Source: the human T2T-CHM13v2.0 reference genome, Homo sapiens
DNA: 64,000 nucleotides
Reading direction: 5' to 3' (one strand)
Assembly (NCBI RefSeq): GCF_009914755.1
Contig: NC_060941.1
The number at the start of each line of letters is the position of its first letter. Within the stretch, counting starts at the first letter, position 1. Shown here piece after piece: positions 2,800 through 2,862 of the stretch. The position numbers and the translations under genes are program-made. The notes below the pieces were generated by a model. It was given only the letters and a program-made list of their open reading frames with translations. It was not told the DNA's origin and did no database searches.

Positions 2800-2862
2800 G
2801 TCATCGCCAACTGCCGTGAGTACAAACTCCGGTTAAGTACTGCTGCTGCGCCAGCACCCTGG
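2800..2862 (+). pseudogene. Inverted 63-bp fragment of KAT2A last coding exon
   Basis: gtcatcgccaactgccgtgagtacaa...agtactgctgctgcgccagcaccctgg aligns to the reverse complement of 4201-4267 ([22 protein letters not shown]), about 54/67 identities by hand. Confidence 0.9.

What the first reader, a model, noticed from the sequence alone, without database searches (positions are those of the whole stretch)
2800..2862. Inverted KAT2A bromodomain fragment captured at the junction of the DHX58 promoter duplication
Seen: the only sequence between the two ~450-bp duplicated units is a 63-bp inverted copy of KAT2A coding sequence 4201-4267 (~80% identity), joined by 1-2 nt microhomologies (g at 2800, gg at 2861-2862). 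Established: a tandem duplication with a locally templated inverted insert and microhomology is the signature of replication template switching (FoSTeS/MMBIR). Inference: one such event built the present DHX58 5' end and is now fixed.
Basis: partly seen in the sequence, partly recalled or inferred. Interest (0 to 1): 0.85.

Follow-up and report, generated by a model that had tools for sequence, protein, structure and literature searches.

The report
KAT2A scrap inside duplicated DHX58 start
The start of the human antiviral sensor gene DHX58 was doubled long ago, and a 63-base backwards copy of the neighbouring KAT2A gene sits at the seam; it is an ordinary kind of copying scar that left the gene with a new first exon and a second interferon switch.

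Summary
Window 2354-2800 and 2861-3311 are two direct copies of one unit, 380 of 433 aligned bases identical. They are the only two copies in the genome. The stretch between them, 2800-2862, is an inverted copy of KAT2A coding bases 4201-4267: 54 of 63 bases match, with two small gaps. That is the only other match in the whole genome (E 6.4e-7), 0 of 200 shuffles reach its score, and KAT2B fits worse (44 matches).

The unit is more than a promoter. It holds an ISRE, the old first exon, the old first intron and the first 14 codons. RefSeq's main transcript now starts in the distal copy. It splices into the old first exon of the proximal copy through an AG inside the proximal ISRE, and the KAT2A scrap lies in intron 1.

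One complex event, a tandem duplication with a templated inverted insertion, is the simplest reading. Replication template switching fits. Break repair with fold-back synthesis predicts the same layout, and the 1- and 2-base microhomologies are close to chance (joint P 0.07). No other mammalian genome was available, so the same-branch test was not run. This is a new example of a known kind of event, of moderate-to-low interest.

The parts
2354..2800 (-). Copy A, the proximal unit. It holds the first 42 coding bases plus 1 UTR base of DHX58 exon 3 (2354-2396, true ATG at 2395-2393), intron 2 (2397-2615), the old first exon that is now exon 2 (2616-2708), and the old core promoter with an ISRE.
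2800..2862 (+). Inverted copy of KAT2A coding bases 4201-4267, KAT2A-sense on the + strand and so antisense to DHX58 and to KAT2A itself. It has 54 matches, 9 mismatches and 4 gap columns, and is frameshifted. It lies in intron 1 of the MANE transcript and is exonic in two Gnomon models.
2861..3311 (-). Copy B, the distal unit. It holds a relic of the coding start with its ATG (2902-2900) and the acceptor before it, a copy of the intron, the present exon 1 (3107-3216), and the present promoter with an ISRE.
4201..4267 (-). Template of the insert: part of KAT2A's last coding exon, residues 26-48 of that exon's translation, at the C-terminal end of the bromodomain.
2698..2710 (+). Proximal ISRE, an exact match to GGAAANNGAAACT in reverse orientation relative to DHX58. 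Its last two bases, 2709-2710, are the AG acceptor of exon 2.
3223..3235 (+). Distal ISRE with the same 13 bases, 7-19 nt upstream of the MANE start at 3216. It lies within an array of four GAAA units (3211-3233).
3107..3216 (-). DHX58 exon 1 (MANE NM_024119.3), non-coding, in copy B. Its donor is CAG|GTGTAG. The copy-B homologue of the old donor has decayed (GTGAGT in copy A, GCGAGA in copy B).
2616..2708 (-). DHX58 exon 2, non-coding, in copy A. It is paralogous to exon 1 and is the former first exon, extended 17 nt upstream into the ISRE.
2801..2902 (-). Open frame of 33 codons from the relic ATG in copy B. It runs into the antisense of the KAT2A insert and stops at 2803-2801. It is present only in transcripts that retain this stretch (XM_054317164.1, XM_054317165.1, XM_054317167.1).
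2764..2791 (.). A 14-nt unit present twice in copy A (2764-2777, 2778-2791) and once in copy B (3289-3302), 9-36 nt from junction 1.
   Evidence: (D3 spacing 525, D10 spacing 511)

Best explanation
This is the scar of one ancient compound mutation. A ~450-bp stretch at the 5' end of DHX58 (ISRE core promoter, non-coding first exon, first intron, first 14 codons) was duplicated in tandem. At the seam, a polymerase copied 67 nt from the opposite strand of KAT2A's last coding exon, which lies just upstream on the chromosome.

In four-point terms the growing strand did the following:
1. It left its template at the equivalent of 3311.
2. It resumed 956 nt ahead on the complementary strand at 4267.
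3. It copied back to 4201.
4. It returned 1340 nt behind, at the equivalent of 2861, and re-copied the unit.

The most likely setting is template switching of a nascent strand at a stalled or broken replication fork (FoSTeS/MMBIR type, two switches). Repair synthesis at a double-strand break, as fold-back or polymerase-theta-type extension followed by end joining, gives the same product and cannot be excluded.

Consequences, shown by annotation:
- The distal copy now supplies the promoter and exon 1.
- The proximal copy's old first exon became internal exon 2, using an AG that lies inside the old ISRE.
- The relic coding start, the KAT2A scrap and the proximal promoter are removed as intron 1.
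- The gene carries two exact ISREs 525 bp apart.

The KAT2A scrap itself is most likely functionless filler.
For: Shown:
- There are two and only two copies of the unit, and they are adjacent and direct.
- The insert matches KAT2A 4201-4267 in inverse orientation, uniquely in the genome (E 6.4e-7). The match is far above chance (0 of 200 shuffles) and better than to KAT2B.
- The insert occupies exactly the seam and is absent from the outer ends of both copies. Past 3311 and before 2354 the sequence is unique.
- Mismatch rates of insert/source and copy/copy are compatible (9/63 vs 53/433, Fisher p 0.68).
- The mismatches are mostly transitions, as expected for a neutrally decaying copy of a constrained exon. 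By my reading of the alignment, three are CpG losses in the insert.
- Exon 1 is in copy B and exon 2 in copy A. The two exact ISREs compare with 0.03 expected by chance.

Literature:
- Copy-number gains with short templated insertions at the junction are attributed to iterative template switches (PMC6902434, passages).
- The four-point model requires only that the 2->3 fragment be copied in reverse complement (PMC5453318, passages).

Inferred:
- A single event, by parsimony.
- The replication setting. The ~1 kb switch distances are on the scale of single-stranded DNA at an uncoupled fork; this is my reasoning, not a test.
Against: - The mechanism cannot be read uniquely from an old scar. Microhomologies of 1 and 2 nt are near chance (joint P 0.07), and each copy has since changed at several per cent of its sites.
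- Polymerase-theta joining of failed SDSA also gives 0.1-10 kb tandem duplications with microhomology and occasional templated insertions (PMC8654963).
- Fold-back synthesis plus NHEJ gives inverted insertions of 2 to ~150 bp (PMC11724301).
- A two-step history, with the duplication first and an insertion within a few bases of the seam later, cannot be excluded from one genome.
- Divergence between the copies is uneven: 11/163 mismatches in 2354-2516 against 42/270 in 2517-2800 (Fisher p 0.006). The molecular dating and the 'same age' argument are therefore soft.
- No orthologous loci were examined.
Confidence: 0.75

Rival explanations
1. Double-strand-break repair, not fork restart. A break in the DHX58 5' end was resected for more than 1.4 kb. 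The right-hand 3' tail, after copying from the sister chromatid (aborted SDSA), folded back on its own strand at the KAT2A exon, was extended by 67 nt, was unwound, and was joined to the other end by polymerase-theta or classical end joining.
For: By my own strand bookkeeping the geometry works. A minus-strand 3' tail ending at the equivalent of 2861 that primes on its own strand at 4201 and is extended to 4267 yields exactly the observed inverted insert to the left of copy B. Tandem duplications of ~100 bp to 10 kb (median ~1 kb), with microhomology and occasional templated insertions, depend on POLQ-1 in helq-1 worms (PMC8654963, section 12 read). Fold-back inverted insertions of 2 to ~150 bp are joined with a median of 2 bp microhomology (PMC11724301, passages). 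Pol theta can start stem-loop extension from two terminal base pairs (PMC11292364, start of the abstract in the listing only).
Against: In the passages seen, fold-back templates lie next to the break: a 41-nt loop, with repeats within the first 63 bp, and most inserts shorter than 14-34 bp. Here the loop would be ~1.3 kb and the insert 63-67 nt. This model needs a break, long resection, sister synthesis, failure of annealing and a fold-back. The replication model needs two switches.
Confidence: 0.3
2. Two separate events. A plain tandem duplication came first. Later an unrelated insertion of a KAT2A-derived fragment, for example a captured DNA or cDNA fragment at a break, happened to land at the seam.
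For: A single genome cannot order the events. Insert/source divergence (14.3% mismatches plus 2 indels) is nominally a little higher than copy/copy divergence (12.2%), not lower.
Against: The insertion would have to fall within a base or two of the seam in a ~900-bp target. No target-site duplication or loss of unit sequence is visible. The divergence difference is not significant (p 0.68).
Confidence: 0.08
3. Chance resemblance, or a different source (KAT2B, another bromodomain gene, a repeat family).
For: None found.
Against: The genome-wide search returns only self and KAT2A. Zero of 200 shuffles reach the score. KAT2B gives 44 matches, 18 mismatches and 6 gap columns against 54/9/4 for KAT2A. 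BPTF scores 11. No repeat is masked here. Caveat from the tool: matches in closed regions of the reference are not shown.
Confidence: 0.01

Closest known systems
FoSTeS/MMBIR-type copy-number gains with templated insertions at the breakpoint junction (human genomic-disorder loci such as PLP1)
   Same: It is a tandem head-to-tail gain without long homology at the ends. A short insertion at the seam is templated from nearby sequence. Join-points have little microhomology, and the event can be written as two template switches (PMC6902434, passages).
   Different: It is far smaller (0.45 kb against kilobases to megabases). It is an ancient, fixed, evolutionary event rather than a de novo pathogenic one. 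The join-points show only 1 and 2 nt, which is not above chance. The replication origin cannot be demonstrated.
Short-range template-switch mutations (four-point model of Loytynoja and Goldman)
   Same: [quoted passage not shown] The order of points here is 4 < 1 < 3 < 2 (PMC5453318, passages).
   Different: That model is applied to events within tens of bases that look like mutation clusters, and its authors explicitly do not model long-range switches. Here the switches span 956 and 1340 nt, and the return point lies behind the departure point, which duplicates 451 nt.
Polymerase-theta (TMEJ) tandem duplications and fold-back inverted insertions at breaks
   Same: The tandem duplication is of the right size class. 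Microhomology is minimal and a templated insertion sits at the seam.
   Different: The template lies ~1-1.4 kb from the join-points rather than beside the break. The insert is longer than most reported ones.
Exonisation and promoter turnover by 5'-end duplication in interferon-stimulated genes
   Same: A duplicated ISRE promoter gives a new first exon. The human LGP2 promoter fragment -888 to +31 responds to IFN, virus, IRF3-5D and RELA (PMC12578130, passages).
   Different: That paper describes one site of 'two overlapping IRF recognition sequences'. In the passages I saw, it mentions neither the duplication nor the second ISRE 525 bp downstream. Its Fig. 4a was not visible to me.

Membership tests
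FoSTeS/MMBIR-type complex copy-number gain | Copy-number gain whose end points share no long homology (not NAHR) | tested here: met
   The unit ends at 2354/2861 and 2800/3311. The flanks are unique sequence and no repeat is masked.
FoSTeS/MMBIR-type complex copy-number gain | Insertion at the junction templated from nearby sequence, direct or inverted | tested here: met
   2800-2862 is the inverse of 4201-4267, 1338-1406 nt away, and is the unique genomic match.
FoSTeS/MMBIR-type complex copy-number gain | Microhomology or microhomeology at each join-point beyond chance | tested here: inconclusive
   The overlaps are 1 nt (G, 2800) and 2 nt (GG, 2861-2862). Chance gives P(>=1) 0.44, P(>=2) 0.16 and joint 0.07. 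By eye I saw no extended imperfect homology at either join. Later substitutions may have blurred it.
FoSTeS/MMBIR-type complex copy-number gain | Extra small errors (slippage, point changes) near the junction from low-processivity synthesis | tested here: inconclusive
   A 14-nt unit is doubled in copy A 9-36 nt from junction 1. It cannot be dated relative to the main event.
FoSTeS/MMBIR-type complex copy-number gain | Arose in a single replication-associated event | not testable with these tools
   This needs orthologous loci or experimental systems. No non-human mammalian DNA is available here.
Short-range template switch (four-point model) | 2->3 fragment copied in reverse complement between two switches | tested here: met
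   The model is as described in PMC5453318.
Short-range template switch (four-point model) | All four points within a short range (tens of bases), product seen as a mutation cluster | tested here: not met
   The switch distances are 956 and 1340 nt, and the product is a 451-nt duplication plus an insert.
TMEJ / fold-back templated insertion | Template immediately beside the break end | tested here: not met
   The template is 956-1340 nt from the join-points. The reported cases seen have a 41-nt loop and lie within 63 bp of the break.
Bromodomain (Pfam PF00439) coding sequence | Translation matches the domain profile above the gathering score | tested here: met
   Met for the source exon 4154-4342(-): E 1.1e-9, 38.5 bits against a cut-off of 21.7. 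Not met for the insert: the 21-aa translation of 2800-2862 hits 0 families at E<=1 and carries 1+3 nt gaps. The insert is a relic, not a domain.
ISRE-driven interferon-stimulated promoter | ISRE consensus close to the transcription start | tested here: met
   The consensus GGAAANNGAAACT (recalled by me) matches exactly at 2698-2710 and 3223-3235. Chance expectation is 0.03, and 0 of 100 shuffles give 2 matches. The distal site is 7-19 nt upstream of the MANE start. Inducibility of a -888/+31 fragment is reported in PMC12578130. Activity of the proximal site was not tested.

The most novel reading that the evidence does not exclude
The KAT2A scrap may be more than filler. It lies on the same transcribed strand as KAT2A but in inverse orientation. 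Any KAT2A transcript that reads through into DHX58, and any DHX58 transcript that retains 2800-2862 (three Gnomon models do), could therefore pair with KAT2A coding RNA over ~56-60 bp. The predicted duplex is -105.7 kcal/mol against -37.5 +/- 4.8 for shuffles, and 56 pairs form in the MFE of a hypothetical 1521-nt read-through RNA. That would place an endogenous double-stranded RNA element at the promoter of a gene whose product, LGP2, binds double-stranded RNA. It could couple DHX58 5'UTR isoforms to KAT2A mRNA or to RNA editing.
Probability: 0.03. Interest if true: 0.6.

Novelty: new member of a known kind. Interest (0 to 1): 0.33.

Why it matters
This is a clean, datable, fixed example of a compound 'duplication plus inverted templated insertion' event in the human germ line. 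The class is mostly known from patients and tumours. Here it had a visible constructive outcome: a new first exon, the old first exon turned into an internal exon through a splice acceptor carved out of an interferon-response element, and a doubled ISRE in a gene of antiviral RNA sensing.

For LGP2 biology the practical point is that the human gene has a second exact ISRE 525 bp downstream of the one next to the start site. If '+1' in the published -888/+31 reporter fragment is the MANE start at 3216, this second ISRE lies outside that fragment (PMC12578130). The '+1' assignment is my inference.

The insert also preserves a snapshot of KAT2A's codons at the time of the event. The insert has TGC where KAT2A now has TGT at two Cys codons. 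None of this overturns anything known.

Tried and rejected
- Other sources for the insert were rejected. KAT2B and BPTF were located with the KAT2A last-exon protein, named from the gene table and compared. KAT2B gave 44/18/6 (matches, mismatches, gap columns) and BPTF a local score of 11.
- Dispersed repeat was rejected.
- Tandem Repeats Finder on 2300-3400 gave only three short G-rich or 10-nt arrays. It did not report the duplication, whose period of 507-525 exceeds the tool's longest period of 500. It also did not report the 14-nt doubling.
- The composition profile showed nothing special: GC 0.49-0.67 across 2000-4600.
- I looked by eye for extended imperfect homology at both join-points and found none worth reporting.
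- Dating by phylogeny was not possible, because none of the collections holds non-human mammalian DNA. I therefore dated by divergence only, using substitution rates recalled from memory (about 1-2.2e-9 per site per year). K2P 0.135 over the whole unit gives roughly 30-65 Myr. The two halves give JC 0.071 and 0.174, roughly 16-35 and 40-85 Myr. All I claim is 'tens of millions of years'.
- Literature: searches for LGP2/DHX58 promoter and ISRE (566 papers, 15 listed) and for DHX58 + KAT2A + duplication + template switch (4 papers, none relevant by title or abstract) turned up no description of this duplication or insert. This is a statement about those two searches only.
- Not seen: supplementary figures with junction sequences in PMC8654963 and PMC6902434, and Fig. 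4a of PMC12578130. They could bear on typical template distances and on which bases the reporter fragment covers.
- Papers seen as listing or abstract start only: PMC11292364, PMC7954356, PMC7025897.
- Papers seen as passages: PMC12578130, PMC6902434, PMC5453318, PMC11724301.
- PMC8654963 was seen as passages plus section 12 in full.

Full report
WHAT IS THERE. Reading 2200-4400 and the repeat scan show two adjacent direct copies of one unit. Copy A is 2354-2800 and copy B is 2861-3311. A global alignment has 433 aligned columns, of which 380 are identical (87.8%). There are 34 transitions (8 at CpG), 19 transversions, 4 gap events over 32 columns, and K2P 0.135. A search of the whole reference with copy B returns only itself and copy A (84%, E 1.1e-133). 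RefSeq masks no repeat here. This is a local tandem duplication, not a repeat family.

THE INSERT. The 63 bases 2800-2862 between the copies match KAT2A 4201-4267 in inverse orientation. The repeat finder reports two arms of 31 nt (87%) and 27 nt (89%). As one alignment there are 54 matches, 9 mismatches and 4 gap columns.

IS IT MORE THAN CHANCE, AND IS KAT2A THE SOURCE?
- A whole-genome search with the 63 bases at E<=10 gives two places only: itself and KAT2A (81%, E 6.4e-7). The tool does not show matches in closed regions.
- In the 64-kb window with self masked, the local score is 39. Two hundred dinucleotide shuffles give 15.8 +/- 1.2 with a maximum of 20, and 0 of 200 reach 39.
- I located the paralogue KAT2B and the next-best bromodomain exon, in BPTF, with the KAT2A last-exon protein. 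The in-register KAT2B stretch gives 44 matches, 18 mismatches and 6 gap columns. BPTF gives a local score of 11.
- The source exon translates to the C-terminal half of a bromodomain (PF00439, E 1.1e-9). The insert's own translation matches nothing and is frameshifted.
- By my reading of the alignment, at least 6 of the 9 mismatches, and both gaps, change or break the KAT2A protein sequence. They must therefore have happened in the insert. Three of them are CpG losses in the insert.
- At two Cys codons the insert has TGC where KAT2A now has TGT. At one of them the TGC forms a CpG with the next codon. This suggests the exon itself has drifted synonymously since the copy was made (inference).

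WHAT THE UNIT IS. The unit is not only a promoter. From the annotation and the alignment, copy A contains:
- the first 42 coding bases and one UTR base of the coding exon (true ATG at 2395-2393);
- the 219-nt intron above it;
- exon 2 (2616-2708);
- about 90 nt of upstream sequence with an exact ISRE (2698-2710).

Copy B contains the homologues of all of these:
- a relic ATG (2902-2900) with an intact acceptor before it;
- the intron copy;
- the present exon 1 (3107-3216);
- an identical ISRE (3223-3235), 7-19 nt upstream of the MANE start.

The ISRE consensus, which I recalled, occurs exactly twice in 64 kb where 0.03 is expected.

The main transcript NM_024119.3 therefore starts in copy B. 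It leaves exon 1 at a CAG|GTGTAG donor, because the homologue of the old donor has decayed from GTGAGT to GCGAGA in copy B. It then enters copy A at an acceptor whose AG (2709-2710) is the last two bases of the proximal ISRE, preceded by a pyrimidine-rich tract. Exons 1 and 2 are thus paralogues, and the old first exon has become an internal exon. Intron 1 (2709-3106) removes the relic coding start, the KAT2A scrap and the proximal promoter.

Three Gnomon models keep the scrap in an exon (2799-3225, 2616-3232 and 2616-3227). In those, a 33-codon frame runs from the relic ATG into the antisense of the scrap and stops at 2803-2801. RefSeq functional elements mark 'active regions' at 2725-2824 and 3064-3583.

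ONE EVENT OR TWO, AND WHEN.
- The scrap is present once, exactly at the seam. It is absent beyond 3311 and before 2354. This excludes duplication of a unit that already carried it.
- A later insertion would have had to hit the seam within a base or two.
- Mismatch rates agree: 9/63 for insert/source and 53/433 for copy/copy (Fisher p 0.68).
- One compound event is therefore the parsimonious reading, but it is parsimony and not proof.
- Divergence between the copies is uneven: 11/163 mismatches in 2354-2516 against 42/270 in 2517-2800 (Fisher p 0.006). By annotated segment the identities are 93.0, 88.6, 79.6 and 92.3% (chi-square p 0.036). Perfect runs of 29, 37 and 48 nt occur.
- Gene conversion of the left part, or faster CpG- and transcription-linked change in the exon and promoter part, could explain the unevenness. 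I cannot tell which.
- With recalled neutral rates (about 1-2.2e-9 per site per year), the whole-unit K2P of 0.135 corresponds to roughly 30-65 Myr, and the two halves to roughly 16-35 and 40-85 Myr. I claim only 'tens of millions of years'.
- That age is enough to say the arrangement is fixed, since alleles do not persist that long. Fixation was not tested in population data.
No tool here reaches non-human mammalian DNA.

HOW IT AROSE. In the four-point notation of PMC5453318 (passages), the product is L->1, 2->3 in reverse complement, 4->R. Point 1 is 3311, point 2 is 4267, point 3 is 4201 and point 4 is 2861, all in copy-B coordinates. The order is 4 < 1 < 3 < 2, the jumps are 956 and 1340 nt, the inverted fragment is 67 nt, and 451 nt are re-copied.

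That is what a FoSTeS/MMBIR event with two switches produces. The genomic-disorder literature assigns copy-number gains with short templated junction insertions to iterative template switches (PMC6902434, passages). A 14-nt unit doubled in copy A 9-36 nt from junction 1 could be a slippage error of the same low-processivity synthesis, but it cannot be dated.

The assignment is not unique, for four reasons:
- The 1- and 2-nt overlaps are near chance (0.44, 0.16, joint 0.07).
- Worm tandem duplications of 0.1-10 kb with microhomology and occasional templated insertions are POLQ-1-dependent products of failed SDSA (PMC8654963, section 12).
- In yeast, inverted insertions of 2 to ~150 bp arise by fold-back priming with Pol delta followed by NHEJ, with a median of 2 bp microhomology (PMC11724301, passages).
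- My own strand bookkeeping shows that a resected minus-strand 3' tail folding back onto the KAT2A exon gives exactly this product.

What speaks for the fork model is economy and distance. The fold-back cases I saw use templates within tens of bases of the break, whereas here the loop would be ~1.3 kb. I put fork-associated switching at about one half, break-repair synthesis at about three tenths, and a two-step history below one tenth.

COMPARISON WITH WHAT IS KNOWN. The event is a small, old, fixed member of the class 'tandem duplication with templated inverted insertion'. It meets the structural criteria of that class: gain without homology at the ends, and a nearby inverted template. The microhomology criterion is inconclusive. 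It fails the short-range criterion of the four-point family and the template-beside-break criterion of fold-back/TMEJ insertions.

Two literature searches found no description of this duplication, of the KAT2A scrap, or of the second ISRE. The one paper that dissects the human LGP2 promoter (PMC12578130, passages) used -888 to +31 and reports one site of two overlapping IRF motifs. That fits copy B, which carries four GAAA units (3211-3233). It implies that the proximal ISRE lay outside the construct, if their +1 is the MANE start. This is an inference, because their figure is not held.

A CURIOSITY. The scrap is inverted but lies on a stretch transcribed from the same strand as KAT2A. The two can therefore pair as RNA. 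The predicted duplex is -105.7 kcal/mol, against -37.5 +/- 4.8 (minimum -53.9) for 200 shuffles of one arm. In the MFE fold of a hypothetical 1521-nt read-through RNA (4300 to 2780, minus strand), 56 base pairs join 4201-4267 to 2800-2862. Many transition differences become G-U pairs. No read-through transcript is annotated, and nothing suggests selection for pairing. I rate a function at about 3%.

VERDICT. It is untested on the phylogenetic prediction. This is a new example of a known kind of mutation. It is a neat illustration, with a modest practical point for LGP2 promoter studies, but it is not surprising to a specialist.

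Noticed in passing
window 2698-2710 and 2709-2710: The AG acceptor of DHX58 exon 2 (MANE) is the last two bases of the proximal ISRE, so an interferon-response element of the old promoter now doubles as a 3' splice site. Deleting that ISRE experimentally would also remove the acceptor.
   Followed up: partly
window 3209-3237 vs 2684-2712: Upstream of the shared ISRE, copy B has four GAAA units (3211-3233). Copy A has two and lacks 7 nt there. The active distal promoter has the richer IRF-type array.
   Followed up: no
window 2801-2902 (minus strand): Copy B keeps the first 14 DHX58 codons with the ATG and the acceptor before it. 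The frame runs 33 codons into the antisense of the KAT2A scrap and stops at 2803-2801. It is an upstream ORF only in the Gnomon models that retain this stretch.
   Followed up: partly
window 2354-2516 vs 2517-2800 (and their partners in copy B): Divergence between the two copies is uneven: 11/163 against 42/270 mismatches (Fisher p 0.006), with perfect runs of 29, 37 and 48 nt. The cause could be gene conversion, constraint or local mutation rate. This is unexplained.
   Followed up: partly
window 2764-2791: A 14-nt unit is present twice in copy A and once in copy B, 9-36 nt from junction 1 (D3/D10). It could be a slippage error made in the same event or a later one.
   Followed up: no
window 3021-3029 and 3068-3092: G-rich runs are expanded in copy B relative to copy A, with a 10-nt extra block. 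They lie just inside intron 1 next to the exon 1 donor. The composition is quadruplex-like on the + strand. This was not examined.
   Followed up: no
window 2800-2862 with 4201-4267 (minus-strand RNA): The scrap and its source can form a ~56-bp RNA duplex if they are ever on one transcript or meet in trans: -105.7 kcal/mol against -37.5 +/- 4.8 for shuffles. No read-through transcript is annotated.
   Followed up: partly
window 2797-2799: Gnomon model XM_054317165.1 ends an exon at 2799, one base before the insert's shared G, and uses a GT donor at 2798-2797 in the last bases of copy A. The seam region thus also offers a splice donor.
   Followed up: no
window 3216-3613: The DHX58 start site lies less than 400 bp downstream of the KAT2A 3' end on the same strand. 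The published -888/+31 LGP2 promoter fragment would therefore reach into the KAT2A 3' UTR, if +1 is the MANE start (inference).
   Followed up: no
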